Origin: Eledone cirrhosa | Taxonomy: Eukaryota | DNA length: 64,000 nucleotides | Assembly (NCBI GenBank): GCA_964016885.1 | Contig: OZ024740.1 | Coordinates: 383,966,001 to 384,030,000 of the forward strand | Reading direction: 5' to 3' | Part shown: piece after piece, positions 26,184 to 64,000 of the stretch | Numbering within the stretch: position 1 is the stretch's first letter | Layout of the letters: every line of letters begins with the position of its first letter | Made by a program: the position numbers and the translations under genes | Notes under the pieces: model-generated | Seen by the model: the letters and a program-made list of their open reading frames with translations, nothing else | The model's database searches: none | Told to the model about the DNA's origin: nothing

Positions 26184-26236
<53 letters not shown>

Positions 26237-26423
26237 TATATACACACATATATATACATACATATATATACACACACACACATACATATACGTATATATA
26301 CATACACACACATACCCATGTATATATACACACAACCACACACTCACACACACTCATACATATATAAATATAGAGACATACATACACATATATATATATA
26401 TATACACATATATATATATATAT

Positions 26424-26460
<37 letters not shown>

Positions 26461-26558
26461 AAATAAATAAATACACACAGTCAGACAGTTATGCATATAT
26501 ATACACATACATACACACATCTCTACAAATACATATACATACACATACATACATACAC

Positions 26559-26624
<66 letters not shown>

Positions 26625-28484: not shown

Positions 28485-29077
28485 TAATATATATTTTAGA
28501 AATTAATATATAAATTAATTTAAATGTAGTTAACCTATAATTTTAATTTAATTAAAATTCTACTACAGATGAAATTAAAAAATATCGTGTGATCATAAAC
28601 TGTGAAAAACTTTTAAATATTATTAACATAAGTAATATATACTTTGGAGATTAATATATAGATTAATTTTAGTTTATTTAACCTTTTATTAAAATTTCTT
28701 TACAGATGAAATATAACAAAATATCGTGTAATCAATAACAGAGAAATACTTTTTAATATTATAAACCTAATTAATATACAATTTAGAAATTAATTTATAA
28801 ATTAATTTTAATTTAGTTAACTTATATTTTTAATTTAGTTAGCTTAAAATTAAAATTCTAATACAGATGGATTGCAGAATATCATGTAATCATAAACTGA
28901 GAAAAACTTTAAAATATATACCTAATTAATATATTCTTTACAAATAAATATATAGATTAATTTTAATTTAGTTAACCTATAATTATATTCTACTATAGAT
29001 AAAATACAAAATTGTGCTTTAATTATTATAAACCTAATTAACATATACTATAGAAATTAATATATAATTTTTAATTT
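28431..29077 (+). repeat. About 4-5 tandem ~140-160-bp repeats derived from the ORF end and proximal 3'UTR
   Basis: ATATCGTGTAATCATAAACTGAGAAA-like motif at 28431, 28582, 28721 and 28879. Confidence 0.75.
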
Positions 29078-29610
29078 AGTTAACCTATAATTAATATTCT
29101 ACTACCGATGAAATACTTGATTTGGCTTTCCCTATTACAAAATTCATTTCATAAAATTGATACCATCATGTTAATATTTTTAATTTAGTTATGCTATAAT
29201 TAATACTCTACTACTGTTTAACTTCAAAATTCCGCCTTAAATATTATAAACCTAAGTAGTATACACCTTAGAAATTAATATATTACCTTTTTTTACTTTA
29301 ATTAACCTATAATTAATAGTCTACTTATATTAAAATGCATAATTTAGCCTTCTTTCTTACAGATACCATTTCCTAATACTGACACTACTATGTAAACACA
29401 TATTATGATTTAAATGCAGATTAATATTAAATGTTCCTTGAAACCTATATTTACTATTTCACACTAATAATTTTAATCCCCTCCCCCCCCATAATTATTC
29501 GTATTTATAAGCGTGGATGTATGTATGTGTATGTAAGTATGTATGTATGTTTGTGTGTTTGTATGTGAGTATAAAAATACATATGTGCGCATGTAAATAA
29601 GTGTGTATGA

Positions 29611-29660
<50 letters not shown>

Positions 29661-29748
29661 GTGTATGTATGTATGTGTATGTATATGTATTTGTAGAGAT
29701 GTGTGTATGTATGTGTATATATATGGATAACTGTCTGACTGTGTGTAT

Positions 29749-29879
<131 letters not shown>

Positions 29880-30351
29880 TACATATATATGTGTGTATGT
29901 ATGTCTCTATATTTATATATGTCTGAGTGTGTGTGAGTGTGTGGTTGTGTGTATATATACATGGGTATGTGTGTGTATGTATATATACGTATATGTATGT
30001 GTGTGTATATATATGTATGTATATATATGTGTGTGTATATATATATGTATATATATATATATATATATGTATGTGTATGTAGGTGTGTATCGAACGTATG
30101 GATGTGTAAATGTGTGTATGTATATAAGCATGTATATTTTATGTCTCTCTTTTATGTTTTTTTATGTTTTTATTATATTTCTTTTATTAAATTTATAGAT
30201 ACATTTTTATAAATATGCTGAGTCTGACACCCTCCTTAATTACTTACTCCCTTACCTCCTTTTAATTCTGCATCTAGATGTAAGTGTGTGTGTGGCCGTG
30301 TTTATGTGTGCGCCTCAATATCCATATAGTTATAATAATAATATATACGTA

Positions 30352-30383
<32 letters not shown>

Positions 30384-30788
30384 CGTGTGTGTTCGTAGAT
30401 ATGTGTGTGTTTATGTATATATGCGTGTGTGTGTATGAATGTATGTATATGTGTGTATATATGTGTGTATATATATATGTATATGTATGTATATGTATGT
30501 ATATATGTGTGTATATATATATGTATGTATATTTTGTCTGTGGATTATAGACATACAGAGACATTAGCCCTGAATTTTTATATTTTTATATTTACATACA
30601 CTTTTTTTGACATGCGTATGCATGTGAACATACATTTTTATGCTTATCTGTGAACGAAGTTACTTACATATATACACACACCTAACTGCATTTTCTTGAT
30701 GAATTTTTATGTATTTCATTGGTCTATTTAAAATCTGTTCCCAAACAGACCTGTAATTTTGAATTGTTGTTATTATGAATAAATATTC

Positions 30789-34534: not shown

Positions 34535-34925
34535 CGTTTGTATATGTATAATAAAGCCAAAACAATTCAGGTATGGACATACAATAAAGAATGCAAATGC
34601 AAAAGATATTGTTGACAATTAGTCTTTTAACTTAGATTTATTTAAATGGCCTTAATTTTCGAGATAATATCTCTTCTTCGGAGGGAAGTAAAGCGGTTAA
34701 ACCAGTGTTCTAAATAGCTTGCCAAGTCATGACTTGGCAAGCTATTTAGAACACTGGTTTAACCGCTTTACTTCCCTCCGAAGAAGAGATATTATCTCGA
34801 AAATTAAGGACATTTAAATAAATCTAAGGTAAAAGACTATTTTTCAACAATATCTTTTGCATTTGCATTCTTTATTCTATGTCCATAACTACATTGCTTT
34901 GGCTTTATTATACATATACAAACGG
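34535..34925. repeat. Spacer-less palindrome, ~195-bp arms, centre 34729/34730; probable PLE 3'-end fold-back
   Basis: ...GCTTGCCAAGTCA|TGACTTGGCAAGC... Arms match with a few mismatches and a small indel. A hammerhead lies downstream on the minus strand. Confidence 0.85.
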
Positions 34926-36154: not shown

Positions 36155-38073
36155 AATATCTCCCGTTGTCAGGAGCTTTTTGTCATTCAGTATGAAGACA
36201 TGGAAAACGACACACCTTTTGAATAGTGAAACAAAATCACTGGAAGCTGGAGAAGTTAATATTAATTGTGGAATTTTTCAGGGTGACTCTTTATCACCGC
36301 TTTTATCCTGCATCGCACTTATACCATTAAGTTAAATGCTCAATGAAACAAAACATGGATATAGAGTCTATGACAAAACCATTAATCACTTGTGCTACAT
36401 GGATGACCTGAAACTATTTGCAAAAAATGATTAACAATTGCAAGAGCAGTTCAGTGATGACATTAAAATGGAGTTTTGACTAGATAAATGCGCCAAAGCA
36501 ACGTTCACCAGACGAAAGATGCTGAACAGTTCAGATATTAATCTTGATCGAGGGAATGTGATAAGAGAACTTGATCAAGAGGAAACTTACAAATATCTAG
36601 GTGTTTGTGAGGGAGAGGGAATCAAGTACTCGACAATGAGGGAAAAGATAAGGAAGGAATGTCACCGCAGAGTAAGAGCAATATTAAGAACGGAATTGAA
36701 TGCAAGGAATAGGATCGATGCCATAAACCCGCTTGCCATACCAGTAGTAACCTACAGTTACAATGTCATCAACTGGTCAAGCACAGAGATCCGTAGGCTC
36801 GGTACAAAAATTCGAAATTTCTTAACCATGTACAGAATGCATCACCCTAAGGCAGATATAGATAGAATATATTTCCCTAGGAAAGAAGCAGGACGTGGGT
36901 TAATCCAGTTAGACATTGCGTTGAAAACTGCAACAAATGGATTATCTACATATCTAAGGGAATCACATGATTGGATGATCAAACTCGTTTTGAAACACGA
37001 AAGCATCAAAAGATCATACACCATTACAAAAGATGCACAAAGATACAGTAATGGACTACAAATTTCAGAAGTCACATTTACTGCTGAAATGGAAAACACA
37101 GAAAAAGCAAAGCAGGTAAAAGAAACTGCAAAGAAAGAACTGCTACAGAAACTGGCTAAGAAATGGCAAGAAAAGCCTCTGTATGGAAAATACCCAGAAC
37201 GAGCTAACAATCCTGATGTTGACAAAACTTTAACCCATCAGTAGTTGGCATCCTCTGGACTGAAATCGGAGACTGAAGAACTGATTATATCAGCACAAGA
37301 TCAGTGTCTACCAACAAAAAATTACCAAGCCAACATAATAAAAAATGGATGCAGCCCATTATGCCGTGTGTGCAAAAAACAACCGGAGACCATTGACCAT
37401 ATAATTTCAATGTGCAGTCCTATAGCTCCAACCGAATACCTAAAAAGGCATGACAGAGCTGCACAATACATACATTGGATAATGTGTAAGCATTTTGACC
37501 TGCCCCATCAAAAGAATTGCCGGGCGCATCAACCACCTCCCATACTTGAAAAAGATCACATCTCAATCTTGTGGAACTTTAGCATCCAAACAGACCGAAA
37601 AATAGATGCAAATAGACCTGATATAATATTGAAGGACTTTAAAAAGAGGGTATGCCTGCTAATTGATATGTCTGTTCCAATAGACAAGAATGTATCTATA
37701 AAAACATTTGAAAAATTGAGCAAGTATAAGGACCTGGAGATAGAAATTGGAAAAATGTGGAAATTGAGAACTAAAACAATACCAGTGGTTGTAGGTGCTC
37801 TGGGAATGATACCTAAGGGGTCTAATGATTACTTATCGCAAATCCCAGGAAACCCGCGTATAGGAGAAATACAAAAGATAGTACTAATGGGAACTGCCCA
37901 TATACTAAGGAAGATTCTGTCAATATAAGTACATCACAAGTCTAAACACTAAAGATGCATGTCTGAGTATGTATGTTCTTTCTTGAACATGGCGGACCTT
38001 GTTGTCTCTTGAGGTCACTGGTTGTGACTTGGTGATAACTCGTATGAACATAAAGCAAGATAAATGCAACTGT
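36155..38073 (+). mobile_element. 5'-truncated R4/Dong family B copy (RT C-half, CCHC, RLE) with (TAA)n tail
   Basis: GIFQGDSLSPL, YMDDLKLF, YKYLG, RKEAGRGL, CRVC..PETIDHIISMC, RHD, NRPDII, IDMSVP, KLSKY. Confidence 0.92.
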
Positions 38074-38074
38074 A

Positions 38075-38108
<34 letters not shown>

Positions 38109-39091
38109 TAATAATAAGGGAAGAAGACGAACATGTTGGATAGAACGTCGTGAAATCGCCCCCGTAAGTTTTTGATTTTGAACATATTTAACTCAATTGT
38201 GAAATAACAATTCTTAGTACAAATGATACATAAAGCATCCGACTTAAGTCTCAGAAGAATTCGAATCCATAATATATGGTTATATCGCACAAATATTCAA
38301 TTTTGTATTATACATGTTATATTCAAAAAAGAATATGGTTATAAATGGAAGAAAACCCCCCTCTGTCTACACTATATATAACAGCCAAATAACATCAATT
38401 TCACCAACATCAGAAACTAGATACACCACCTACCCTATTAGCCCTCTGTGTACACTAAATACAACAGCCAGATAACGGCAATTTCACCACCACCACCACC
38501 AATCTCAGCATCATAATAATAATTACTATTATTATTGACTCAAGTTTTAAAAAAATGTTTAAATCCAATATTAAAGTAATATGTCAACACATATATTAAA
38601 CATACGCGACAAACGCATCGATACACAGATCAAACAAAACTAGTCTATTCAACAATACTCAGTAACGACAACGCCATCACTATAGTCACCGCCGCCACCA
38701 CCTCATCCATCATTGCCACCACTATCCCATCAGCGCCGCCACCACTCCTTCATTGCTACCACCACTATTCCCCCATTACCTTCTGTTAACTTAAGAAAGG
38801 GGAAGATGGCGGTATCACTAGACAAGGGAGAGGCTAGCAAAATATATAAATAGATTGACTTAGTGTCCCGGCCACCGGCTAAACGTCAACAACTATGGCA
38901 CTGCTGGCTCCCCCTTCCCCACCAACAATAGAAAAAGCCCCAGCACCACGACCGACAATGCCAACAACAATAACAGGCAACTTCAGCAAAACGTATAATA
39001 TATTATTAATAATTTCATTCTTAAGCCACGCAATGCTCACATTAAGGAACCACTCATGATAATAACAATTTAAAAAACAACAAAAAAGAAA

Positions 39092-40137
39092 AGCCCGTGA
39101 CCAAGAAATACCGGGATGGCAGCCGGCGAGGAATAGCCGTGTCTCTAGAGGAGAACGACCCCTCTAGTCTTGGTTGACAGGCGTCCTTGAAGTGGTAACA
39201 CGAAATGATTACCCCTTGGCGGATAAGGATAACACGCGACAAAATAAAGTAAATGTCTAATGATAAAATCTCATACCGGATCGGCCGTCACCCGGGTAAA
39301 AAAGGGCAACGTCCCTCAAAGAAGAACCAGACTGGGGTCGAAAAATCAGCTAATGGTTCAAACCTTCCCATCACTTCGGAGCTGGAGACCTCCCATAACC
39401 GGAATACTCCTACTGTTGGCCCTCCATGCTCACCACCAAGAAATTCAGCCCATTATGCCGTGTATGTAAAAAACAACCAGAGATGATTGACCATATAATT
39501 TCAATGTTCAGTCCTATAGCTCCAACCGAATACCTAAACAGGCAAGACAGAGCTGCACAATATATATATTGGATAATGTGTAAGCATTTTGACCTGCCCC
39601 ATCAAAAGAATTGGTAAAGATCACATCGCAATCTTGTGGAACTTTAGCATCCAAACAGACCGAAAAATAGATGCAAATAGACCTGATATAATATTGAAGG
39701 ACTTTAAAAAGAGGGTATGCCTGCTAATTGATATGTCCGTTCCAATAGACAAGAATGTATCTACAAAAACATTTGAAAAATTGAGCAAGTATAAGGACCT
39801 GGAGATAGAAATTGGAAAAATGTGGAAATTGAGCACTTAAACAATACCAGTGGTTGTAGGCGCTCTAGGAATGATACCTAAGGGGTCAAATGATTACTTA
39901 TCGCAAATCCCAGGAAACCCGCGTATAGGAGAAATACAAAATATAGTACTAATGGGAACTGCCCATATACTAAGGAAGATTCTGTCAATATAAGTACATC
40001 ACAAGACTAAACACCTAAAGATACATGTGTGAGTATATATGTTCTTTCTTGAATATGGCGGACCTGGTTGTCTCTTGAGGTAACTGGTTGTGACTTGGTG
40101 ATAACTCGTATGAACATAAAGCAAGATAAATGCAGCT

Positions 40138-40138
<1 letters not shown>
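39092..40138 (+). mobile_element. Internally deleted R4/Dong element (putative 5' end fused to family B 3' end at ~39445); second copy 42180-43226
   Basis: A structured GC-rich leader and ORF start sharing GAACCwGACTG..CGAAA..GCTrATG with the family A ORF start, then an abrupt switch into SPLCRV.. and RLE. (TAA)n tail. Confidence 0.7.
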
Positions 40139-40206
<68 letters not shown>

Positions 40207-40209
<3 letters not shown>

Positions 40210-41161
40210 GTAACTGCAAAGAAAGAACTGCTACAGAAACTGGCTAAGAAATGGCAAGAAATGCCTCTGTATGGAAAATACCCAGAGCGAGTTAACAATC
40301 CTGATGTTGACAAAACTTTAACCCATCAGTGGTTGGCATCCTCTGGACTGAAATCGGAGACTGAAGGACTGATTATATCGGCACAAGATCAGTGTCTGCC
40401 AACAAAAAATTACCAAGCCAACATAATAAAAAATGGGTGCAGCCCATTATGCCGTGTATGCAAAAAACAACCAGAGACCATTGACCATATAATTTCAATG
40501 TGCAGTCCTATAGCTCCAACCGAATACCTAAACAGGCATGACAGAGCTGCACAATACATACATTGGATAATGTGTAAGCATTTTGACCTGCCCCATCAAA
40601 AGAATTGGTGGGAGCATCAACCACCTCCCATACTTGAAAAAGATCACATCTCAATCTTGTGGAACTTTAGCATCCAAACAGACCGAAAAATAGATGCAAA
40701 TAGACCTGATATAATATTGAAGGACTTTAAAAAGAGGGTATGCCTGCTAATTGATATGTCTGTTCCAATAGACAAGAATGTATCTATAAAAACATTTGAA
40801 AAATTGAGCAAGTATAAGGACCTGGAGATAGAAATTGGAAAAATGTGGAAATTGAGAACTAAAACAATACCAGTGGTTGTAGGTGCTCTGGGAATGATAC
40901 CTAAGGGGTCTAATGATTACTTATCGCAAATCCCAGGAAACCCGCGTATAGGAGAAATACAAAAGATAGTACTAATGGGAACTGCCCATATACTAAGGAA
41001 GATTCTGTCAATATAAGTACATCACAAGTCTAAACACTAAAGATGCATGTCTGAGTATGTATGTTCTTTCTTGAACATGGCGGACCTTGTTGTCTCTTGA
41101 GGTCACTGGTTGTGACTTGGTGATAACTCGTATGAACATAAAGCAAGATAAATGCAACTGT
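40207..41161 (+). mobile_element. 5'-truncated family B copy (recombinant) with open CCHC/RLE frame 40261-41016
   Basis: Begins directly after (TAA)n and ends in (TAA)n. Confidence 0.9.
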
Positions 41162-41162
41162 A

Positions 41163-41196
<34 letters not shown>

Positions 41197-43225
41197 TAAT
41201 AATAAGGGAAGAAGACGAACATGTTGGATAGAACGTCGTGAAATCGCCCCCGTAAGTTTTTGATTTTGAACATATTTAACTCAATTGTGAAATAACAATT
41301 CTTAGTACAAATGATACATAAAGCATCCGACTTAAGTCTCAGAAGAATTCGAATCCATAATATATGGTTATATCGCACAAATATTCAATTTTGTATTATA
41401 CATGTTATATTCAAAAAAGAATATGGTTATAAATGGAAGAAAACCCCCCTCTGTCTACACTATATATAACAGCCAAATAACATCAATTTCACCAACATCA
41501 GAAACTAGATACACCACCTACCCTATTAGCCCTCTGTGTACACTAAATACAACAGCCAGATAACGGCAATTTCACCACCACCACCACCAATCTCAGCATC
41601 ATAATAATAATTACTATTATTATTGACTCAAGTTTTAAAAAAATGTTTAAATCCAATATTAAAGTAATATGTCAACACATATATTAAACATACGCGACAA
41701 ACGCATCGATACACAGATCAAACAAAACTAGTCTATTCAACAATACTCAGTAACGACAACGCCATCACTATAGTCACCGCCGCCACCACCTCATCCATCA
41801 TTGCCACCACTATCCCATCAGCGCCGCCACCACTCCTTCATTGCTACCACCACTATTCCCCCATTACCTTCTGTTAACTTAAGAAAGGGGAAGATGGCGG
41901 TATCACTAGACAAGGGAGAGGCTAGCAAAATATATAAATAGATTGACTTAGTGTCCCGGCCACCGGCTAAACGTCAACAACTATGGCACTGCTGGCTCCC
42001 CCTTCCCCACCAACAATAGAAAAAGCCCCAGCACCACGACCGACAATGCCAACAACAATAACAGGCAACTTCAGCAAAACGTATAATATATTATTAATAA
42101 TTTCATTCTTAAGCCACGCAATGCTCACATTAAGGAACCACTCATGATAATAACAATTTAAAAAACAACAAAAAAGAAAAGCCCGTGACCAAGAAATACC
42201 GGGATGGCAGCCGGCGAGGAATAGCCGTGTCTCTAGAGGAGAACGACCCCTCTAGTCTTGGTTGACAGGCGTCCTTGAAGTGGTAACACGAAATGATTAC
42301 CCCTTGGCGGATAAGGATAACACGCGACAAAATAAAGTAAATGTCTAATGATAAAATCTCATACCGGATCGGCCGTCACCCGGGTAAAAAAGGGCAACGT
42401 CCCTCAAAGAAGAACCAGACTGGGGTCGAAAAATCAGCTAATGGTTCAAACCTTCCCATCACTTCGGAGCTGGAGACCTCCCATAACCGGAATACTCCTA
42501 CTGTTGGCCCTCCATGCTCACCACCAAGAAATTCAGCCCATTATGCCGTGTATGTAAAAAACAACCAGAGATGATTGACCATATAATTTCAATGTTCAGT
42601 CCTATAGCTCCAACCGAATACCTAAACAGGCAAGACAGAGCTGCACAATATATATATTGGATAATGTGTAAGCATTTTGACCTGCCCCATCAAAAGAATT
42701 GGTAAAGATCACATCGCAATCTTGTGGAACTTTAGCATCCAAACAGACCGAAAAATAGATGCAAATAGACCTGATATAATATTGAAGGACTTTAAAAAGA
42801 GGGTATGCCTGCTAATTGATATGTCCGTTCCAATAGACAAGAATGTATCTACAAAAACATTTGAAAAATTGAGCAAGTATAAGGACCTGGAGATAGAAAT
42901 TGGAAAAATGTGGAAATTGAGCACTTAAACAATACCAGTGGTTGTAGGCGCTCTAGGAATGATACCTAAGGGGTCAAATGATTACTTATCGCAAATCCCA
43001 GGAAACCCGCGTATAGGAGAAATACAAAATATAGTACTAATGGGAACTGCCCATATACTAAGGAAGATTCTGTCAATATAAGTACATCACAAGACTAAAC
43101 ACCTAAAGATACATGTGTGAGTATATATGTTCTTTCTTGAATATGGCGGACCTGGTTGTCTCTTGAGGTAACTGGTTGTGACTTGGTGATAACTCGTATG
43201 AACATAAAGCAAGATAAATGCAGCT

Positions 43226-43300
<75 letters not shown>

Positions 43301-43303
<3 letters not shown>

Positions 43304-44250
43304 GTAACTGCAAAGAAAGAACTGCTACAGAAACTGGCTAAGAAATGGCAAGAAATGCCTCTGTATGGAAAATACCCAGAGCGAGTTAACAATCCTGATG
43401 TTGACAAAACTTTAACCCATCAGTGGTTGGCATCCTCTGGACTGAAATCGGAGACTGAAGGACTGATTATATCGGCACAAGATCAGTGTCTGCCAACAAA
43501 AAATTACCAAGCCAACATAATAAAAAATGGGTGCAGCCCATTATGCCGTGTATGCAAAAAACAACCAGAGACCATTGACCATATAATTTCAATGTGCAGT
43601 CCTATAGCTCCAACCGAATACCTAAACAGGCATGACAGAGCTGCACAATACATACATTGGATAATGTGTAAGCATTTTGACCTGCCCCATCAAAAGAATT
43701 GGTGGGAGCATCAACCACCTCCCATACTTGAAAAAGGTCACATCTCAATCTTGTGGAACTTTAGCATCCAAACAGACCGAAAAATAGATGCAAATAGACC
43801 TGATATAATATTGAAGGACTTTCAAAGGAGGGTATGCCTGCTAATTGATATGTCTGTTCCAATAGACAAGAATGTATCTATAAAAACATTTGAAAAATTG
43901 AGCAAGTATAAGGACCTGGAGATAGAAATTGGAAAAATGTGGAAATGGAGAACTAAAAAAATACCAGTGGTTGTAGGCGCTCTGGGAATGATACCTAAGG
44001 GGTCTAACGACTACTTATCGCAAATCCCAGGAAACCCGCGTATAGGAGAAATACAAAAGATAGTACTAATGGGAACTGCCCATATACTAAGGAAGATCCT
44101 GTCAATATAAGTACATCACAAGTCTAAACAGTAAGGATGCATGTGTGAATATGTATGTTCTTTCTTGAACATGGCGGACCTTGTTGTCTCTTGAGGTCAC
44201 TGGTTGCGACTTGGTGATAACTCGTATGAACATAAAGCAAGATAAATGCA
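43301..44250 (+). mobile_element. 5'-truncated family B copy with open CCHC/RLE frame 43355-44110
   Basis: Same truncation point as 40207; TAA on both sides. Confidence 0.9.
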
Positions 44251-44286
44251 AATAATAAAAATAATAATAATAATAATAATAATAAT

Positions 44287-44765
44287 GTTTTCTTTATTAA
44301 CCACAAGGGTTTACATAAAGTAGACATTAAGGACAGTACAGGACAATACAGGACGGTACAAATGGGCATTTATGCGTTTAAAAAAACAGAGGATGAACTA
44401 AAATAATAAAGAAAAATTCCCCAATAGGGGGGAGACTTCCGAGGGACATTTGTGGAGAAAGCCCATTAAAAGACGACAGTGGCCCTGACCACCAGGGCAA
44501 GTGCCCTCTCCCAGTTTTCCACCTTTAATTTACAGACACATACTCAGAGAAGGCCCATTCATTCGGGCTATACTTGCTTCTCTCACCCATCTTTCAACAA
44601 AATGCTGGGAAGAGAGCACTTCCCTCTCTACCCTGATTTTCCTTTTCAGATGAAATTTGAAAATGTTAATCAGGGCATCACCGAAGAGGTAAGTGCTCGT
44701 CTTCAGCCCTTTCAAACGTGTCCACCATACTATCTCTTTCGCCATGGCCACCAGACAGACAAAAA
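44287..44765 (-). mobile_element. 3' fragment of the Tx1-type element, flanked by TAA repeats
   Basis: Reverse complement of ~8130-8615. Confidence 0.9.
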
Positions 44766-44780
44766 ATAATAATAATAATA

Positions 44781-47643
44781 AAAGTTAAAAGAAACAACAG
44801 CTAAGGTAAACAAAGTCATCCCATACCTTGAGGCGAGGAGCCTTCACCAGTGCAACAATATCCTCAAAGCAACAGCAAATACGGTGAGGAAACAACTTGG
44901 TATAAAAGCGAGAGGAAACAACAGACAAGAAAGAGCAGAGCCTTGGTGGAAGAAACGACTGAGTGGTCAAATCAGGGAAATGAGAAATGACATTGGAAAG
45001 CTTGAGTCACTACTGAATGGGACACTAAAAAACATAGACACTAAAAATAGACTGGAAATAAAGTACAACACTAGGAGGAAAAAGCTAAATATTATCATAG
45101 AGGAACTGAAGCAACGCATTGTAGCAAAGAGTGCAAAAATCAGGCGATACGAGAACAGAGTCAGTCAGTATAAACAGAACCGCATGTTCGACAACAACCA
45201 GAAGATGCTGTTTGGACAGCTTGAGGGGAAAGTAAGGGAACGACTTGATCCCTGAGGCGGAACAAACTAAAACATTCTAGAGAGGAATATGGGAGCAGGA
45301 TGTTAGACATAATGACCAGGCAGTGTGGATTGAGACAGTACAGAAGGAGATCGGTGAACAGGCACACCAACAAACTGATTTGAGTATCACAGTTGAAACT
45401 CTTAAGGGGCAGGCCAAAAAACTAACCAACTGGAAATCACCAAGCCCAGATGGTGTGCAGGGGTATTGGATTAAAAATATAACATCCCTCCACCCGAAAC
45501 TGACAACCATGTTCAATGACTGCTTGATGTCAGGTGAGGTACCAGAGTGGTTGACAAAAGGTACCACAGTTCTGATAATGAAAGACCGAATCAAGGGTAA
45601 TGATGTTACCAACTATAGACCTATCACATGTCTGTCCGTAATGTGGAAACTGTTGACGAGCATTGTGTCTGAGGAAATCTACCTTCACCTCCACACAAAC
45701 AAGTTGTTACCGGACGAACAGAAAGGATGCCGAAAGAAGTCACGTGGTACAAAGGACCAGTTACTTATTGATAAGATGGTAATGGGGAATTTGTAGGAGG
45801 AGACACACTGATCTTGCCATGGGATCGATAGACTACAGAAAGGCATTTGACATGGTGCCTCATTCTTGGATCACCAAAAGCCTAGAGATCTTCAAGGTGG
45901 CAGATAACATCAGACAGTTGTTGGGCAAACGTATGAAGTCCTGGAAAACAGAGTTAACATCAGCTGGAGAATCCTTGGGAGGCGTGAAGATTACGAGAGG
46001 TATCTTCCAGGGAGATAGTCTGTGCCCTCTGTTGTTTGTCCTTGCCCTGATGCCCCTGACCAATGTACTGCGAAAAGTGAGCGCAGGATACAGGTTGGGA
46101 AAGGGAGGGCTTACCATCAATCACCTCCTCTTCATGGACGATCTTAAGCTCTTCGGGAAGAGTGAGAAGGAGTTGGATGTGCTTGTTGACACTGTCCGTA
46201 TTTTCAGCAGTGATATATGCATGCAGTTTGGTATTAGTAAGTGTGGAGTCATTGTGATGAGGAGAGGTAGGTTGAGCAGAAGTAACGGAATCCAGATACC
46301 AACAGGTGAGATGATAAAGGAAATTGACTCTGAGGAGGGATACAAGTATTTGGGCGTTCTGGAGGCTGATGGCATAAAGAACAAAAAAATGAAAGAATTG
46401 TTAAGTACTGAATACATTCGGAGAGTAAGGAGCGTATTGAAGTCACATCTGAACAGCAGAAATGCCATTAGCGCAGTAAATTCCCGAGCTGTGTCTATTA
46501 TTAGTTACAGTGCGGGAATTCTTAGATGGAATGTTGCTGAACAAAAAGAAATGGATAGGAAGACTAGGAAGCTATTGACTATCTACAACATGTTCCACAA
46601 GAGGAGTGATGTCGATAGACTCTACTTAAGAAGATCTGAAGGTGGAAGAGGTCTTATCAGCATAGAAGACTTTGTTCAGATGGAGAAAAACAACCTACAC
46701 AAATACGTGACTGATAGTAAGGAGCCAATGCTCAGAATTGTACTGAAGGAGGGGACAGTAGGCCAGGGGATGTCCAGGGAGGTAATAACATCAAGGAGAA
46801 AGAGCAGCCTTCAGGAAAAATCCCTTCATAGTACCTTCTTTGAGAAAACTGAATTCAGAGATCCACAGACATGGAACTGGTTGAGAAGAGGAGACCTTAA
46901 AAAGGCTACAGAAGGAATGTTAAAGGCTGCGCAGGAGCAGGCCCTCACAACGAAGTGGTTGAAACACCATATTTACAAGGAGGAGGCTAGCCCACTGTGC
47001 AGGATATGTGGAGAGAGAGAAGAGACTGTGGCTCACATTGTATCCGAGTGTAAACACCTAGCCCAGACCCACTATAAGGGCTGGAGACATGATGTGATGG
47101 GCAGGGTGATCCACTGGCACCTGTGCAAAGTAAACAATTTACCACATTCTGAAAAATGGTATGAGCATAAGCCAGAGTCCGTGATAGAGAACGATCAGGT
47201 GAAGGTGCTGTGGTTTTTTAGGATACAGACGGACAAGAAACTGGAACACAATAGACCAGACCTGGTGGTTGTGGACAAAGAAAAAAGGTCGTGTCTGATT
47301 GTGGATGTGGCCTGCCCATTCGACACGAGAGTGCAAGAGAAGGAGAGGGAGAAAATTAACCGATACCAGGACTTAAAGTGGGAGGTAAAAAGGATTTGGA
47401 ACTGCCATGAAGTCAAAGTGATCCCGAATGTCATAGGCGCACTGGGGACTATCTCCAAAAGTTTCCAGGGATGGTTAAAGAAAATCGGCCCCTTTACGCT
47501 TTTTGGAACGCTTCAAAAGGCATGCTTGCTGGGAACAGCAAGAACCCTCCGATACGTCCTGAATATCTGAGGCTGCAGGTAGTGGCTTGATATTCATTCC
47601 AACGGACTTTCCAGTTAACTAACATCAATGACTGAGACACAAG

Positions 47644-47644
<1 letters not shown>
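44781..47644 (+). mobile_element. 5'-truncated R4/Dong family A copy (RT, CCHC, RLE), few lesions, (TAA)n tail
   Basis: WKSPSPDGV, YRPITCL, EQKGCR, IDYRKAFDMVPH, GIFQGDSL, FMDDLKLF, CRICGEREETVAHIVSEC, RHD, NRPDLV, VDVACP, EKINRY. Confidence 0.95.
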
Positions 47645-47692
<48 letters not shown>

Positions 47693-47694
<2 letters not shown>

Positions 47695-49486
47695 ACTGGT
47701 CTTGCCATGGGATGGATAGACTACAAAAAGGCATTTGACATGGTGCCTCATTCTTGGATCACCAAAAGCCTAGAGATCTTCAAGGTGGCAGATAACATCA
47801 GACAGTTGTTGGGCAAAAGTATGAAGACCTGGAAAACAGAGTTAACATCAGCTGGAGAATCCTTGGGGGGCGTGAAGATTACGAGAGGTATCTTCCAGGG
47901 AGATAGTCTGTCCCCTCTGTTGTTTGTCCTTGCCCTGATGCGCCTGACCATTATACTGCGAAAAGTGAGAGCAGGATACAAGTTGGGAAAGGGAGAGCTT
48001 ACCATCAATAACCTCATCTTCATGGACGATCTTAAGCTCTTCAGGAAGAGTGACAACGAGTTGGATGTGCTTGTTGACACTGTCCCTATGTTCAGCAATG
48101 ATGTATGTGATGAAGAGGGGTAAACTGAGCAGTATCAACGGAATCCAGGTACGAACAGGTGAGATGATAAAGGAAATTGACACTGAAGAAAGATACAAGT
48201 ATTTGGGTGTTCTGACATCAAGAACAAAAAAATAAAGGAATTGATATGATCTGAATACATTCGGAGAGTAAGGAGCGTATTAAAGTCACATTTGAACAGT
48301 AGGAATGCCATAAGTGCAGTAAATTCCCGAGCTGTATCCATTATTAGGTACAGTGCGGGAATTCTGAGATGGAATGTTGCTGAACAAAAAGAAATGGATA
48401 GGAAGACCCGGAAGCTATTGACTATCTACAACATGTTCCACAAGAGGAGTGATGTCGATAGACTCTACTTAAGGAGATCTGAATGTGGAAGAGGTCTTAT
48501 CAGCATAGAGGACTTTGTTCAGATGGAGAAAAACAACCTACACAAATGCGTGACTGATAGTAAGGAGCCAACGCTCAGAATTGTACTGAAGGAGAGGACA
48601 ATAGACCAGGGGATATCCAAGGAGGAAATAACAACAAGGAGAAAGAGCAGCCTTCATGAAAAATACCTTCATAGTACCTTCTTTGAGAAAACTGAATTCA
48701 GAGATCCACAGACATGGAACTGGTTGAAAAGAGGAGACCTTAAAAAGGCTACCGAAGGAATGCTAATGGCTCGCATGAGCAGGCCCTCAAAACGAAGTGG
48801 TTGAAACACCATATTTATAAGGAGGACACTAGGACACTGTGCAGGATCTGTGGAGAGAGAGAGGAGACTGTGGATCACATTGTATCCGAGTGTAAACACC
48901 TAGCCCAGACTCACCTTAAAGGCTGGAGACATGATGTGATGGGCAGGGTGATCCACTGGCACCTATGCAAAGTAAACAATTTACCACATTCTGAGAAGTG
49001 GTATGAGCATAAGCCAGAGTCGGTGATAGAAAACGGTCAGTTGAACGTGCTGTGGAATGTTAGGATACAGACGGACAAGAAACTGGAACACAATAAACCT
49101 GACCTGGTGGTTTTTGACAAGGAAAAAAGATCGTGCCTGATTGTGGATGTGGCCTGCCCATTCGACACGAGAGTGCAAGAGAAGGAGAGGGAGAAAATTA
49201 ACCGATACCAGGACTTAAAGTGGGAGGTAAAAATTATTTGGAACTGCCATGAAGTCAAAGTGGTCCCGATTGTCATAGGCGCACGAGGTACTATCTCAAA
49301 AAGATTCAAGGGATGGTTAAAGAAAATTGGCCCCGCCCCGCTTTTTGGAACGCTTCAAAAAGCATGCTTACTGGGAACAGCAAGATCCTTCCGATACGTC
49401 CTGAATATCCGAGGCTGTAGGTAGTGGTTTGATATTCATTTCAACAAACTTTCCAGTTAACTAACATCAATGACTGAGACTCAAAG
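47693..49486 (+). mobile_element. Second, shorter and more decayed family A copy in tandem, (TAA)n tail
   Basis: Starts after (TAA)n at GWIDYKKAFD; frameshifted; same 3'UTR as the preceding copy. Confidence 0.92.
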
Positions 49487-49940
49487 AACAATAATAATAA
49501 TAATAATAATAATATTTCAAGAGTTATTAATAGTCAATATTTTTTTCTTCATGGTCAATATTTTTTTCAAAATTTGTATAATGCTTGAAAGGTTTATTAT
49601 TATACAGAGTATAGTGCTTTTAATCTATAGAGTAGTGTGATTTTAATCTATTGTAAAACTATATAGATTGAGTAATCACTGAACCATATTAATCTTTGGT
49701 TATATATAAATCTGTATATATATATATATATGTGTGTGTATATATATATGTATGTATATATATATGTATATATAGTATTAATTATACTATTTATGGTTAT
49801 GTAAATACAAAAACCTTTTGCAGTTATATATATTTGTTTATACAAACCCTAAATAGTGGTAGGCAGTAATATATTACTACCTTATTACCAGTAAGTTAAG
49901 TAGCTCAATGTAAAGACATCAGATGATTTACAGAGCAGTT

Positions 49941-49982
<42 letters not shown>

Positions 49983-49985
<3 letters not shown>

Positions 49986-50078
49986 CGAAGGAAATGTGGT
50001 AAGGAACCAGGTGGACCATAACGCACCAGAATTAGCCGTCGAAACGGCTTGAGCTCAGCTGTCGGGGTCTTACTGGTT

Positions 50079-50081
<3 letters not shown>
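49983..50081 (+). repeat. Short structured repeat in (TA)n with hammerhead-like half; deleted copy at 32911-32971, fragment at 19428-19462 (opposite strand)
   Basis: AGGAACCAG/CTGGTTCCT closing stem; GAAA-CGGCU-ugagcuc-AGCyG-UC. Confidence 0.6.
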
Positions 50082-50534: not shown

Positions 50535-50745
50535 ATAAGTTATTCCGGGTTGAATCGGGGGTAACCACAGTAAGTCAGCTACTCATTACATAGCAGTGTA
50601 TAAATGTTTTAATATAGAAAATATTCTACAGGACTAAAACTGTTTCACGATTTCACACGAATGAAACTGTTCTAATCCTGTAGAAGCTTTTCTATTTTAA
50701 AATATATATATACATACATATATTTGTGTGTGTGTGTGTGAGTGT

Positions 50746-50776
<31 letters not shown>

Positions 50777-51300
50777 CGTGCGCGCGCGCTTGTGTGTGTG
50801 TGTGTGTACCTGTTCTTGTGTGACTGTAGAATGAGGAATATGTTTCTAAATATTAGCTTTCTCATAATACATTCACACATTACCTGAATAAATATTCATG
50901 TTTGCAGAATGTACTTTTTGTATTCTAGCGGAAATGATTTCAGTTTCAACAAATGTATATATATATGTATGTATGTATACATATAAGTTTATCCCGGGTT
51001 CAATCTGAGGTAACCACAGTAGGTAAGGTACACAATACATACCAGAATATAAATATTTAATATATAAATGGCTTCTACTGGACTAGAAATATTTCATTCG
51101 GGAGAAATCATCAATACGCCCTTTATACTCTGCTATGTATTGAGTACCTTACTGAGGTCACCCCCGATTGAATCCGGGATCAACTTATCTTTTAGCTCTT
51201 ACTGTGCTCCACTTAACCAGGGCTTCCTGATGATTTCTCCCGAATGAAACAGTTCTAGTTGTGTAGAAGCCATTTCTATATTAAATATTTATACTCTGCC
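50535..51300. repeat. Two fold-back clusters (50535-50700, 50982-51300) of a ~170-nt hammerhead-containing repeat (putative retrozyme)
   Basis: Four partial copies in both orientations. TTTATACTCTGC recurs 166 nt apart (51122, 51288). Confidence 0.7.
51221..51271 (+). ncRNA. Type I hammerhead ribozyme
   Basis: GGCUUC-CUGAUGA-uUUCucccGAAu-GAAA-CA(guucuaguug)UG-UA-GAAGCC. Predicted cleavage after GUA at 51265. A sister copy gives stem III CAG/CUG. Confidence 0.8.
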
Positions 51301-51320
51301 ATATTTATATATATATATCT

Positions 51321-51420
51321 ATTATAATGAAAACGAAAAATCAGTAATGCATCTGGACTTAATTTATTGCGCGTTAAATTAAGTCCAGATGCATCACTGA
51401 TTTTTCGTTTTCTTTATAAT
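51321..51420. repeat. Hairpin palindrome, ~46-bp arms, 8-nt spacer
   Basis: GAAAACGAAAAATCAGTAATGCATCTGGACTTAATTTA and its reverse complement. Confidence 0.9.
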
Positions 51421-51786
51421 ATCTACACTCTACTCTGATGAATATCGAGTGCTAATTCTGGCATACCGCCTATGGAAGCACCTTAGCTACTATTATACAC
51501 AACTATATATATATATATATATGTGTGTGTGTATGTGTATGTGTATGTGTGTGTAGATATACATATGAATAGAATAAGAACTTTATTTCTTTGAGGAACA
51601 ATCAACATGTTCTGGTTCATTACCATTCATCACGACTGTATACCTATCTGTCAACGTTTTGAAAGGTTGAAAATATATACACATATGTCCGTCACTTGTT
51701 AGTTCAATATATATAAACATATATATATATATCCACACATACACACATTATATATGATATATATATATATGTAAGTGTATATATAT

Positions 51787-58683: not shown

Positions 58684-58717
58684 TTGTAAAATTCTATATC
58701 TTCCGCTCTCTGAATGT

Positions 58718-58763
<46 letters not shown>

Positions 58764-58797
58764 ACATTCAGAGAGCGGAAGATATAGAATTTTACAA
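58684..58797. repeat. Perfect 114-bp palindrome: 37-bp arms around (TA)20
   Basis: TTGTAAAATTCTATATCTTCCGCTCTCTGAATGTCAA-(TA)20-exact reverse complement. Confidence 0.95.
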
Positions 58798-59827: not shown

Positions 59828-59865
<38 letters not shown>

Positions 59866-60397
59866 CGAAAGCAGAAAATTGCTTATTGTAATCCAGTTCG
59901 TAGTTAAGATAGCCAGTTTCTTGGACAGTTTCCAACGTACTGTTAGGTGTAACTCCGCAAGTTTGCAAGAATCTGGTCAGTAAATCCCGTTCAATCTCGG
60001 AGTATAAACAATAAAAGAGAAAACTCAGGTAAGCATTAAAAAAAGGATTTTATCCAGGTATTTACGACCGTTTGATTGGTAAGCGCAACCTTATATCGCT
60101 ATACTGCAAATAGCAGCCACTCCATAATAGCTGTTATTCACCTCCAAAATTTCAAAATAATGAATAAGTTACTTGTAAAACGTTCTTAATATATAACAAA
60201 GCCTTTTTGGGGAATCGTATTTACTAGTATAGGGAGAGAGGAAGGGGTGAAGAGTTAAGAAGTAGAGGGACAAACGGTGATGGAGGGAGGGGTAAAGATG
60301 GAAGGATTCCTCGAACAGTTTTGATTCGTAGACTTGATGTCGTCATTTTACATTGTAGGGAGGTAAAGAGAATTAAATTGTTTATAGTGGGAGAGAA

Positions 60398-60453
<56 letters not shown>

Positions 60454-60972
60454 GGAGCGAGAGAGATAGAGACAGGGGGGAGAGATAAAGAGATAAATAT
60501 ATATATATCAAAAGGGGGAAGAGAAAAAAGAAGAAAAGAAAAGAGAAAAAAAAAAGGGAGAGCAGAAAAGAAGAAAACGAAAAAAGAAAAAAAGGAATGA
60601 AGGAGGAGAGAGGGACATAAGTATTCGTTACTGTGGGTAATTAAAGGGGTTAGATTCAATAAGAGGGTAGAAGGTCTAAGTATATGCAGTTTGTCAGGTG
60701 GTAGTAGAAGGTTAAGTGTTCGATTTTCACAAGTCTATGGTTGCAATAAATTGATCTTTCGATTTTATTGTCGAATCTAACCCCTTTAATTACCCACAGA
60801 AACGAATACGTATGTCCCTCTCTCCCCCTTCATTCCTTTTTTTCTTTTTTCCTTTTCTTCTTTTCTTCTCTCCCTTTTTTTGTTCTCTTTTCTTTTCTTC
60901 TTTTTTCTCTTCCCCCTTTTGATATATATATATTTATCTCTTTATCTCTCACCCCTGTCTCTATCTCTCTCG

Positions 60973-61040
<68 letters not shown>

Positions 61041-61274
61041 TTCTCTCCCACTATAAACAATTTAATTCTCTTTACCTCCCTACAATGTAAAATGACGACA
61101 TCAAGTCTACGAATCAAAACTGATCGAGGAATCCTTCCATCTTACCCCTCCATCCATCTCCGTTTGTCCCTCTACTTCCTAACTCTTCTCCCCCTTACTC
61201 TCTCTCTCTATACTAGTAAATACGATTTCAAAAGAATGTTTTTTTTTATATATTAAGAACCTTTTACAAGTAAC

Positions 61275-61392
61275 TTATTCATTATTTTGAAAATTTGGAG
61301 GTGAATAACAGTTATTATGGAGTGTCTGCTATTTGCAGTATAGCGATATAAGGTTGCGCTTACCAATGAAACAGTCGTAAATACCTGGATAA
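61275..61392 (+). ncRNA. Candidate hammerhead with U3-A8 variant core
   Basis: UUAUUCA-u-UAUU-UUGAAAA-uUUGG...CCAAu-GAAA-CAGUCG-UA-AAUA-cc-UGGAUAA, located in a PLE pseudo-LTR. Confidence 0.5.
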
Positions 61393-61628
61393 AATCCTTT
61401 TTTTAATGCATACATGAGTTTTCTCTTTTATTGTTTATAATCCAAGATTGAACGGGATTTAATAACCAGATTCTAGCAAACTTGTGGAGTTACCCCTAAC
61501 CGTACGTTGGAAACCGTCCAAGAAACTGGCTATCTTAACCACGAACCGGATTACAATACGCAATTTTCTGCTTTCCTAACTACAGACTCCTAATCGGTCG
61601 AGCAACCACCTAAACATACGGCACTACT

Positions 61629-63991
61629 ATGGAAAAGCATCACATAGATATGTCCCTAATCAACATTCCTATACTTTCGAGAAAGGATTATACCATCGAG
61701 GTGATACAATGAACAAACGACTTTATACGTCGGGTTAGATGAAAAACTTTCCATTTCGACAAAGGATGTACCAGTCGGACCGTGAATGCGACAAGGAAAC
61801 ATACGGCTTTAAATTATTTAAGAACCCACCTACCAACCCTCAACTGGATGCCTTAGAACAGGACTTACTGAAGATGATTATGGATATCAAATTCAAAAAG
61901 CAGAGGAATAATAAACTCCAGAATGACATGAATACATTCATAAAAAAGCTGTGAACTACCAATGGAATTATTGACAAAGCGGACAATACCTCAAATGTGT
62001 ATACGATGGATATTAACACGTACAATAGCTTCATACGGAAGGAATTACATAGGAAATACAGAAAAAACTAACGAGACGGCACTGATAAACATCAACAACG
62101 AGGCACACAACATAGTCAAACACCTAGGAATAGAGGATAGAACGGGGCCACTTCGGCCATGTACCCCCACATTTAATCTCAAGCACCATAAGATAAATGT
62201 TGATTATAACGCCACAATTAGACTTATATGCCCGTCCAAATCAGACATTGTGAAAATTAGTAAATATATAATAGACAAAGTAATATCACAAATGAAAAAT
62301 AAACTAGTGATTAAACTATGGAGTAACACAACCGAAACAATTAAATGGTTTAACAGTATAGCTAACAAAAAACTATCTAAGTTTATACAATTTGACATTA
62401 ACGACTATTACTCCTCTATATCACCCAATACCTTGGATAAACCCTTAACATTCGCCAGAGCCAATTCTGACGTGACAGACGATGTGATAAAAATTATATT
62501 AGCTGCTAGGAAAACAATAATTAAATTTGAAAACGCCTATTGGGAACGTAAGGAAAGATTAGATACATTTGACATCACGATGGGGGCTAATGAGTCGGCT
62601 GAGGTCACGGTTTTAGTAGGTATTTACATAGCCCATAGTTTACATAAGGGATTTAGCGACCTTCACGGTGTAATCTACAGAGACGACGCCCTTCTTCTAG
62701 TTAAGAACCTAAATAACCAGAGCATAGAAAGACTGCGGAAGAATATTAGAAAGGCTCTCGGTAAACTAGGCCTTAGCATATTGTATGAATATAGCACTAA
62801 AATGGTTAACTTTCTAGACGCGACGCTTAACCTAAATACAGGACTTATAAGACCTTTTCACAAGAATAATGAAAACTTAGCATACATCAGCTGTAATTCG
62901 AACCACCCACTATCCATAGTTAAGTCCGTTCCACGCAGCATATCCCTTAGGATCTCCTGCCTCTCGTCTAACCGACAAATCTTCGAGGAATACGCGTAGT
63001 ACTACAATACCGCAGTAGTTAAGGCAGTCCACCTAGATAGACTAGAATATATACATGAAAGCCTCCGCAAAGCACACACGAATAGGCATAACATAAACTC
63101 CAGAAACACACGCACACACGCATTTACACATAGAACTACCAATTATACTGAAAATAGAAATACAACATCAAAATCAAACAAGTCACGCAGTAAAAAATAT
63201 ATTTGGTATAACCCCATATTTAACACCTCTATTGGTACCAACCTATTTTCTACCTTCTTTAGAATAATAAATGAGCACTTTCCAGATTCACATAGATAGG
63301 GCAAAATCCTTAACACTAAATCTATCAGACTATCTTATTCCACTGCACCAAACATAGAGGCACACATTAAGATGTTTAACGCTAAAAAGAAACGTAACAA
63401 CACCGGAACACAAATGTATAACAATAACAATACAATTACCACCGAACACAACAGACTATCTAATACACAACCACCCACTAGAAGGCAAACAAAACATAAC
63501 GCACTTGTTCAGGCATCGCAGCCCACAAATAATGCCAAAGGTGTCCATGAAAAGAATTGTAATTGCCACCTACCTGAAACCTCTCTATTGCATAATGAAT
63601 GTATGCAGTCTAACCTGGTTTACCAATGCACGGTCGAATCAGACAAACAGAAATGGTATTAAATCGGAGCGACTGGGAATACATTTAAAGCTCGTTGGTA
63701 TACACATCGTTACGCAACGAAACTTTCCCAGAATCCTTATGTAACTATCCTTGCGAACAACACCTGGCAACTGAGGGAAATTAACCATCAATACACCCTG
63801 AAGTGAAAGAAATTATCGAACGCGCCTGCATATCGGAGTGGTATGAGATGCTGTCGGTTATGTGACCTTGAACTGTTCCACAATTTGAGTTCGAATAATA
63901 AGTTACACAACAATAAATTCGAAAGATCAATTTATTGCAACCATAGACTTAAAGGAAAATGTTCGCACTACAAATGCAAATCGAATACTTA
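61629..63991 (+). pseudogene. Penelope-like RT + GIY-YIG ORF with stops and frameshifts
   Basis: SLINIPI, ETYGFK, RLICPSKSDI, FIQFDINDYYSSI, FDITMG, IYRDDAL, VNFLDATLNL, WYNP, CNC..C..SNLVY, IGATGNTFKARW, CRLC..E, CNH. Confidence 0.9.
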
Positions 63992-64000
63992 ACCTCCTAC

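What the first reader, a model, noticed from the sequence alone, without database searches (positions are those of the whole stretch)
50535..51300. Putative octopus retrozyme: ~170-nt hammerhead monomer in permuted and fold-back copies
Seen: an intact type I hammerhead (51221-51271) inside a unit that restarts after 166 nt, plus three partial copies in both orientations. All are non-coding and (TA)n-flanked, and two inversion breakpoints fall in or beside the ribozyme core. Known: metazoan non-LTR retrozymes are short tandem monomers with type I hammerheads that yield circular RNAs and are thought to be mobilised by PLE enzymes. Inference: such a family exists here, next to its likely PLE helpers and sharing their insertion signature.
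Basis: partly seen in the sequence, partly recalled or inferred. Interest (0 to 1): 0.75.

Follow-up and report, generated by a model that had tools for sequence, protein, structure and literature searches.

The report
Penelope-like retroelement stumps carrying hammerheads
These repeats are two short mirror-image insertions made of the ribozyme-bearing front end of a protein-coding Penelope-like jumping gene, not a separate circular-RNA element, and the ends of its many copies likely record the enzyme copying up to the RNA's cap and sometimes jumping back.

Summary
The hammerhead motif, the partial copies and the 166-nt restart are real, but the retrozyme reading fails. Every piece maps onto the pLTR, tail and 5'UTR of a Hydra-clade Penelope-like element (PLE). 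Elsewhere in the genome this sequence runs into a PLE ORF, intact (713 aa) in a young sister subfamily. The family is abundant: 719 exact hammerheads. Of 100 copies sampled by their 3' end, 69 have an inverted partner and none has the permuted layout. The permuted 'monomer' is rare, its junction varies, and I found no array of it beyond about 2.3 units. The window's own hammerhead has a private stem III mismatch, and the PLE next door is a different family. One point is of interest: copies stop at stem I's first base, 30 nt below a TATA box, and 91 of 130 carry an extra G there (control site 0 of 19). That likely records copying of capped, uncleaved sense RNA. Jumps from that end into the 5'UTR would build retrozyme-like dimers without circles. 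No RNA data were available. The scan reported similar PLE stumps before on other DNA.

The parts
50535..50647 (-). Insertion 1, arm A: PLE terminal repeat from the outer 3' end (tail end, +137 counted from stem I's first base) back to +24 inside the hammerhead
   Evidence: 84% to natural PLE copy L212 and 89% to intact sister copy L281
50649..50713 (+). Insertion 1, arm B: from +11 in the hammerhead to the inner 3' end (about +67), then (TA)n
   Evidence: 84% to L212; inverted repeat I5
50983..51121 (-). Insertion 2, arm A: from +137 back through a degraded hammerhead to stem I's first base, with an extra G read by eye at the end
   Evidence: 88% to L212 over +137 to +7; last 8 bases read and alignment A2
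51122..51219 (+). Insertion 2, arm B, upstream part: tail (+67 to +137) reading through into the PLE 5'UTR to +168, 13 nt short of the ORF start
   Evidence: Aligns with ORF-bearing copies L212, L267, L274, L275 and L281 up to TTAACCA, then diverges
51220..51220 (+). Extra G at the junction, supplied by neither the 5'UTR (T) nor the promoter side (C); likely copy of the RNA cap
   Evidence: family statistics
51221..51271 (+). Type I hammerhead motif: 6-bp stem I, 3-bp stem II with a U.U base and tetraloop, 4-bp stem III with one private G.G mismatch; predicted cut 51265|51266
51272..51302 (+). Rest of arm B to about +81, then AT-rich flank; its last ~15 nt make the '166-nt restart'
   Evidence: 94% to L212 over 51221-51302
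61944..63990 (+). Neighbouring decayed PLE ORF of another family; not the source of the unit
   Evidence: RVT_1 E 9.5e-6; stops; no DNA match to the unit in 30 family loci; 42% protein identity to the cognate ORF

Best explanation
The repeats are two stump-sized, two-armed insertions consisting of the terminal repeat, tail and 5'UTR of a protein-coding Hydra-clade Penelope-like element, likely made by that element's own reverse transcriptase. Shown: the identity of the pieces, a cognate element with layout pLTR-ORF-microsatellite 3'UTR-pLTR, two fixed 3' ends about 70 nt apart, a head-to-head inverted partner in most copies, a pile-up of 5' ends at stem I's first base 30 nt below a TATA box, and an extra G at that base. 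Inferred: the PLE mRNA starts, capped, at GGCTTC. The endonuclease nicks a (TA)n target and reverse transcription starts at internal sites (+67 and +137) of the 5' copy of the repeat. It runs through the uncleaved hammerhead and reaches the cap after at most ~140 nt, adding a C opposite it. The two arms are then joined head to head. Occasionally the enzyme jumps from the cap end to the 5'UTR near +165 to +185 and copies on, which gives the permuted '166-nt unit' seen here. The hammerhead is predicted to cut poorly or late; the window copy is a decayed insertion and likely inert.
For: Of 34 exact read-through matches, 12 run on into the PLE ORF start, 16 join the hammerhead's 5' end, 3 join at the cleavage site and 3 are other. 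Of 20 regions fetched around ORF-start hits, 4 (L278, L280, L281, L282) hold a 758-codon open frame and L278-L281 show hammerhead repeats on both sides. These sister ORFs are 98.8-99.4% identical. The protein has DKT, RWR, CxCX5C, and CxxC and CxH around E and N, the Hydra marks given in PMC8557442 (passages). All window pieces map to this repeat at 84-94%. Among 100 copies anchored at the tail end, 69 have an inverted partner, 65 of 72 inverted segments end at +50 to +79, and 0 have the permuted layout. 32 of 94 5' ends fall at +0 to +7 (binomial p 4e-15 against uniform). TATA-to-stem I distance is 30-31 nt in three subfamilies. An extra G is present in 91 of 130 copies that abut AT-rich flank at +0, 0 of 19 at control position +6, and 4 of 233 with the promoter attached. 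Permuted junctions vary, with G before GGCTTC in 26 of 33. The five read-through dimers have five different periods, 157-176 nt. Two internal start sites, extension of both strands and use of uncleaved RNA were shown in vitro for an anole PLE (PMC11167929, parts 1-2 of 4 read).
Against: No intact ORF of the window's exact subfamily was found among the 20 regions fetched: its ORF-bearing copies (for example L212, L263, L274, L275) are broken or cut short, and the intact ones belong to a sister 79-89% identical in the repeat. The window's exact junction recurs at 7 loci (9 pattern matches, 2 unrelated), which could mean a small clonal lineage rather than a hotspot. 16 of 34 read-through matches return to the hammerhead within a narrow UTR window, which a short RNA species could also explain. 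About 29 of 30 loci found with the far-upstream part begin at one fixed (TA)n edge, so a ~500-nt non-autonomous derivative may exist, although the intact element has a long microsatellite at that place. The breakpoint p-value ignores microhomology and duplicated loci. Pfam gives the cognate ORF only a weak GIY-YIG hit (E 0.13) and no RVT_1 hit; its assignment rests on motifs and on 42% identity to an RVT_1-positive PLE ORF. Transcript start, cap and cleavage are unmeasured.
Confidence: 0.88

Rival explanations
1. A true non-LTR retrozyme: a ~166-nt monomer derived from the PLE repeat, released by two hammerheads, circularised and reinserted in trans by PLE enzymes.
For: Permuted units exist at 33 distinct loci in my sample and 7 share the window's junction. 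Five read-through dimers occur in this subfamily and 3 in a sibling, 2 of the latter with both cores intact. One locus has ~2.3 units (L017). Retrozymes related to pLTRs are described (bioRxiv 10.64898/2026.07.22.740005, parts 1-3 of 5 read).
Against: 0 of 100 sampled copies are permuted. No array of this unit was found among 40 scored of 2604 candidates or among 24 genome-wide exact pair matches. 0 of 5 dimers of this subfamily keep two intact cores, and both junctions of L017 lack the CUGAUGA core. Junctions differ and carry a cap-like G. There is no excess of ends at the cleavage site (85 against 101 at the next base).
Confidence: 0.07
2. The permuted copies come from a short, linear, capped transcript (cap to about +165/+185), or from a ~500-nt non-autonomous mini-PLE, that is mobilised in trans as a SINE-like passenger; the enzyme jumps from its 5' end to its 3' end.
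For: Jumps land in a narrow UTR window in two subfamilies. Stumps far outnumber ORF-bearing copies (3495 against 337 first-look candidates). A fixed upstream edge is seen.
Against: Landing points vary and extend at least 68 nt further, into the ORF (L229). The fixed edge coincides with the element's internal microsatellite. Internal priming near the cap of full-length mRNA explains the excess of stumps without a second RNA.
Confidence: 0.12
3. The fold-back and permuted layouts arose after insertion, by DNA repair, slippage or assembly error in (TA)n tracts.
For: Some local duplications exist (L224/L225, L426, L437, L441) and several junctions show microhomology.
Against: The two arms end at two fixed, different sites in most of 100 independent loci, with varied centres. 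The extra G is position-specific. An independent contig bridges the window's junction (X1 record 3, 51129-51241, no differences).
Confidence: 0.02

Closest known systems
Hydra-clade Penelope-like elements (Craig et al. 2021, PMC8557442; passages and supplement look-ups seen), including Hydra-1_Obim
   Same: C-terminal GIY-YIG, DKT, CxCX5C linker, CxxC and CxH motifs, canonical hammerhead in the pLTR, (TA)n targets, partial tandems with an inverted 5'-truncated copy and an optional tail
   Different: A different family from Hydra-1_Obim: its listed hammerhead and ORF start differ, and the supplement holds no match to this hammerhead or ORF start. RWR stands in place of RWK. The tail is ~70 nt rather than 30-40. 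Intact sister copies are ~4.8 kb owing to a ~2-kb microsatellite 3'UTR, against <3 kb as described.
PAc, Poseidon PLE of Anolis carolinensis (Frangieh et al. 2024, PMC11167929; parts 1-2 of 4 read)
   Same: Two internal start sites defining the tail, AT-rich targets, both strands extended, uncleaved RNA as template, no ends piled at the hammerhead cut
   Different: Different clade. Here the start sites and hammerhead lie in the 5'UTR, upstream of the ATG. The parts I read mention no cap-derived G or cap-to-UTR jump.
Dispersed hammerheads of truncated PLEs (Cervera and de la Pena 2014, PMC4209133; parts 1-2 of 4 read)
   Same: Thousands of single motifs, pairs 100-700 bp apart on opposite strands, only a few inside full PLEs
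   Different: Stem III here is 4 bp with an 8-nt loop and stem II is short, unlike the minimal motif with long helix II and no helix III.
Metazoan non-LTR retrozymes (Cervera and de la Pena 2020, PMC7229834, passages; Li, Clavereau and Pollet 2026, bioRxiv 10.64898/2026.07.22.740005, parts 1-3 of 5)
   Same: Type I hammerhead, ~170-nt permuted unit at the low end of the described range, kinship to pLTRs
   Different: No multimer arrays of this unit found, junctions differ between copies, the sequence is part of a coding element, and circular RNA is not shown.

Membership tests
Non-LTR retrozyme | Type I hammerhead motif | tested here: met
   Core and three stems present; stem I changes on both sides between subfamilies (2 pairs, 7 cells; 93% of cells paired against at most 47% when slid; 8 hand-picked sequences)
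Non-LTR retrozyme | Head-to-tail tandem monomers with a complete hammerhead in at least two consecutive units | tested here: not met
   The window has one per strand segment. 0 of 5 read-through dimers of this subfamily keep two intact cores; 2 of 3 sibling dimers do; no array of the ~170-nt unit (exact patterns miss diverged copies)
Non-LTR retrozyme | One constant monomer shared by the family | tested here: not met
   Junctions vary over 33 loci; the window's junction occurs at 7 loci against 719 exact hammerheads
Non-LTR retrozyme | Non-coding and separate from an autonomous element | tested here: not met
   The same sequence continues into a PLE ORF
Non-LTR retrozyme | Expressed as monomeric linear and circular RNA; self-cleaves | not testable with these tools
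   Needs RNA reads and an in vitro assay
EN+ Penelope-like element terminus | pLTR flanking an RT and GIY-YIG ORF in partial tandem | tested here: met
   L278-L281: repeat, 713-aa ORF, 3'UTR, repeat; L212, L267, L274, L275: repeat joined to the ORF start
EN+ Penelope-like element terminus | Inverted 5'-truncated partner and optional tail (two fixed 3' ends) | tested here: met
   69 of 100 with inverted partner; ends near +67 and +137; both ends also seen on full-length copies
Hydra clade | DKT, RWK, CxCX5C linker, CxxC and CxH around E and N, no CCHH | tested here: met
   Read by eye from P0001 against the text; RWR instead of RWK
Hydra clade | Placement within Hydra in an RT tree | not tested
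   No tree was built
Hydra clade | (TA)n insertion preference | tested here: met
   1336 exact tail ends run into TATA against 34 read-through matches (the patterns differ in length)

The most novel reading that the evidence does not exclude
The genome preserves a readable record of PLE reverse transcription. Both arms of each fold-back are copied from capped, uncleaved sense RNA, from two internal start sites up to the cap, which leaves an extra G. Jumps from the cap end back into the 5'UTR repeatedly create ~170-nt hammerhead dimers in at least two subfamilies. This would argue against antisense self-priming as the source of PLE inverted repeats (proposed in PMC3846280, passages seen) and would give a direct, circle-free route by which retrozyme monomers are born from PLE ends. 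My searches found no paper describing a cap-derived G in PLE insertions; most subscription journals are not searched.
Probability: 0.55. Interest if true: 0.6.

Novelty: new member of a known kind. Interest (0 to 1): 0.36.

Why it matters
As an object it is ordinary: terminal stumps of a Hydra-clade PLE, a layout already described in many animals. It does show that a hammerhead plus a short terminal redundancy is not enough to call a retrozyme. The by-product is more useful. Position-specific extra G bases and cap-to-UTR junctions make two open questions testable: which RNA PLEs copy when they build inverted ends, and how retrozyme monomers arise from pLTRs. A young, intact sister ORF (L278-L282) is available for an in vitro test.

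Tried and rejected
Rfam scan of the window: no hammerhead family at E<=1, only low-complexity miRNA-type noise. Single-strand folding did not favour the hammerhead fold for any of 5 sequences (z -0.9 to +0.45; one, L018, was cut off-register). Sequencing runs: no RNA holder listed; contigs of X1 and X4 show presence and the private stem III change only. The neighbouring PLE as helper: no DNA match in 30 of 30 loci. The young 784-aa PLE family (10 of 15 fetched regions) has other ends, and hammerhead stumps near it are separate insertions in (TA)n. Walking upstream from the promoter stopped at a (TA)n edge; the ORF was found by following read-through downstream instead. DNA footprint of hammerhead cleavage: 2 loci with junctions exactly at the cut looked suggestive (L205/L206, L218), but genome-wide 85 matches at the cut against 101 one base on show no excess, and none of 100 sampled copies ends exactly there; rejected. 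Search for longer arrays with a dimer query returned only its source at full length (40 of 2604 candidates scored). In one search I dropped L164 (false match) and L167 (promoter context) and counted the L224/L225 duplicate once, taking 36 rows to 33; that sample is enriched for the window's junction by my queries. My first label 'Neptune' was replaced by 'Hydra'. Look-up of earlier findings by sequence gave nothing. Supplements of the 2026 bioRxiv preprint could not be read; its main text lists no mollusc among the 35 species. Supplements of PMC7229834 and PMC4209133 were not read and might list cephalopod motifs.

Full report
Observation. The window holds a type I hammerhead motif at 51221-51271 with stem I GGCTTC/GAAGCC, core CTGATGA, a 3-bp stem II on a U.U base, and a 4-bp stem III; the predicted cut is 51265|51266. 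Partial copies lie at 50535-50647 (-), 50649-50710 (+), 50983-51121 (-) and 51122-51219 (+), beside (TA)n-rich tracts. The 166-nt restart is a redundancy of about 15 nt (51122 and 51288). The window copy is not fully intact: TG at 51260-51261 replaces the CC seen in about 95% of laid contig depth and breaks one stem III pair. Rfam finds no hammerhead at E<=1 and the minimum-energy fold is not the hammerhead. The motif rests on its core and on stem I changes on both sides between subfamilies (8 hand-picked sequences).

Family. The 45-nt family hammerhead has 719 exact matches, control 0. In 30 loci taken from that list the usual copy is the hammerhead plus a short downstream piece that ends at one of two places and runs into (TA)n, often with a head-to-head inverted partner. 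Many copies have CCAAT- and TATA-like motifs upstream instead of the window's sequence. The outer end followed by TATA has 1336 exact matches; the read-through form has 34.

What the unit is. Of those 34 read-through matches, 12 run on into an ATG and the N-terminus of a PLE ORF, 16 join the 5' end of the hammerhead as in the window, 3 (two loci) join at the cleavage site and 3 are other. A search with the ORF start gave 337 candidates. Of 20 regions fetched, 4 hold a 758-codon open frame, 713 aa from the ATG, and L278-L281 have hammerhead repeats on both sides of the ORF and a ~2-kb microsatellite 3'UTR. These ORFs are 98.8-99.4% identical to each other. They are a sister subfamily with a compensated stem I; ORF-bearing copies with the window's own stem I (L212, L274, L275) are broken or cut short. 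All window pieces map on this repeat at 84-94% to L212 and 79-89% to L281. The window's plus-strand arm follows the 5'UTR to +168, 13 nt before the ATG, and then switches to the hammerhead. The protein shows DKT, RWR, CxCX5C, CxxC and CxH, the marks of the Hydra clade in PMC8557442 (passages). It is not Hydra-1_Obim. Pfam support is weak (GIY-YIG E 0.13, no RVT_1) and no tree was built.

The neighbouring PLE. The element at 61944-63990 is 42% identical in protein to the cognate ORF, and none of 30 loci of its family matches the unit. It is a neighbour, not the evident helper.

Test of the retrozyme reading. I took the first 100 listed of the 1336 tail ends, all on contig C1. 69 have an inverted partner, 65 of 72 inverted segments end at +50 to +79, and none has the permuted layout. 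The window's junction occurs at 7 loci (9 matches, 2 unrelated). Across 33 permuted loci the junctions vary from TTAACCA to 68 nt further on. A genome-wide pattern for two cores 153-183 nt apart gave 24 matches. Five are read-through dimers of this subfamily, with five different periods and none with two intact cores. Three belong to a sibling subfamily, two of them with both cores intact. The rest are separate stumps or short local arrays of 76-91-nt stump-plus-TA units, 3-4 copies each. The longest permuted run seen is ~2.3 units, with the core deleted at both junctions (L017). Exact patterns miss diverged copies, so these are lower bounds.

Mechanism. 5' ends pile up at stem I's first base: 32 of 94 at +0 to +7, and only 6 of 100 reach further upstream. 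That base lies 30-31 nt below a TATA box in three subfamilies. Copies abutting AT-rich flank there carry an extra G in 91 of 130 cases, against 0 of 19 at +6 and 4 of 233 with the promoter attached. Permuted junctions have it in 26 of 33, as does the window at 51220. That reverse transcriptases add a base opposite a cap is recalled knowledge, not from a call. I infer a capped transcript starting at GGCTTC, internal starts near +67 and +137, copying through the uncleaved hammerhead to the cap, and joining of two arms head to head. The permuted unit would arise when the enzyme jumps from the cap end to the 5'UTR. Ends show no excess at the cleavage site (85 against 101 one base on). This matches the in vitro behaviour of the anole PLE: two internal starts, both strands extended, uncleaved RNA used (PMC11167929). 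It differs from antisense self-priming, proposed in PMC3846280 (passages). A circle made by two hammerhead cuts would need a two-hammerhead template and would keep one fixed junction; such templates are rare here.

Comparison. The layout is that of PLE insertions with inverted pLTR and tail (PMC8557442, PMC3846280) and of the dispersed, opposite-strand hammerhead pairs noted in PMC4209133. Kinship of retrozymes to pLTRs is argued in bioRxiv 10.64898/2026.07.22.740005. Searches found no description of this family, and searches found no report of a cap-derived G in PLE insertions. Earlier notes of this scan reached a similar reading for other repeats in this and other genomes; they are unchecked and are not counted as support.

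Verdict. A real feature and a new family of a known kind. It works like PLE terminal stumps and fails three membership tests for a retrozyme. Transcription start, cap, cleavage and circles remain unmeasured. Interest 0.36, carried mostly by the cap-G and jump footprint.

Noticed in passing
L192:6131-6242: The young 784-aa PLE family (copies 97-99% identical) appears to carry a hammerhead with a very long helix II: CTGAGGA and GAAAC lie about 85 nt apart, with stem I TGCT/AGCA. Read by eye; my scan missed it because of its length limit.
   Followed up: no
L425, L440, L423 (G000 C2, C21): A sibling subfamily forms the same permuted dimers (periods 170, 172, 183) with the jump landing at the homologous 5'UTR place; two keep both hammerhead cores intact and are the best candidates for nascent retrozymes.
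   Followed up: partly
L441/L442, L426, L437: Short local arrays of 3-4 hammerhead-stump-plus-TA units with periods of about 76-91 nt, some with intact cores; they would pass an automated retrozyme filter.
   Followed up: partly
L281:4300-6050: Intact elements carry a ~2-kb (TA/TG) microsatellite inside their 3'UTR, resembling their own target; many truncated copies begin exactly at its edge.
   Followed up: partly
window 59860-64000: A decayed PLE of another family with an ~870-bp inverted repeat at its 5' side (59860-61582, 90% identity) and stops in the ORF; close relatives elsewhere have open frames up to 918 codons.
   Followed up: partly
window 51320-51421: A separate fold-back with 47-nt arms, 96% complementary, directly after the hammerhead insertion and sharing the AT-rich flank.
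   Followed up: no
window 23056 (minus strand): A second hammerhead-like core of an unrelated family (CTGAAGA...GAAA), also seen in L119 and L185.
   Followed up: no
window 36480-49514: Tandem and nested LINE fragments (RVT_1, zf-RVT) ending in (TAA)n, including a 99% identical duplication with a period of about 3.1 kb (37117-41193 and 40205-44285).
   Followed up: no
window 49985-50080: A ~96-nt element between two (TA)n tracts that recurs beside family copies in L015, L126, L132 and L135; likely another TA-targeting stump.
   Followed up: no
window 11542-12051; 34535-34924; 58684-58797; 25739-30523: A PIF1-like helicase fragment (E 5.5e-29), two palindromes and a 1.4-kb inverted repeat pair.
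   Followed up: no
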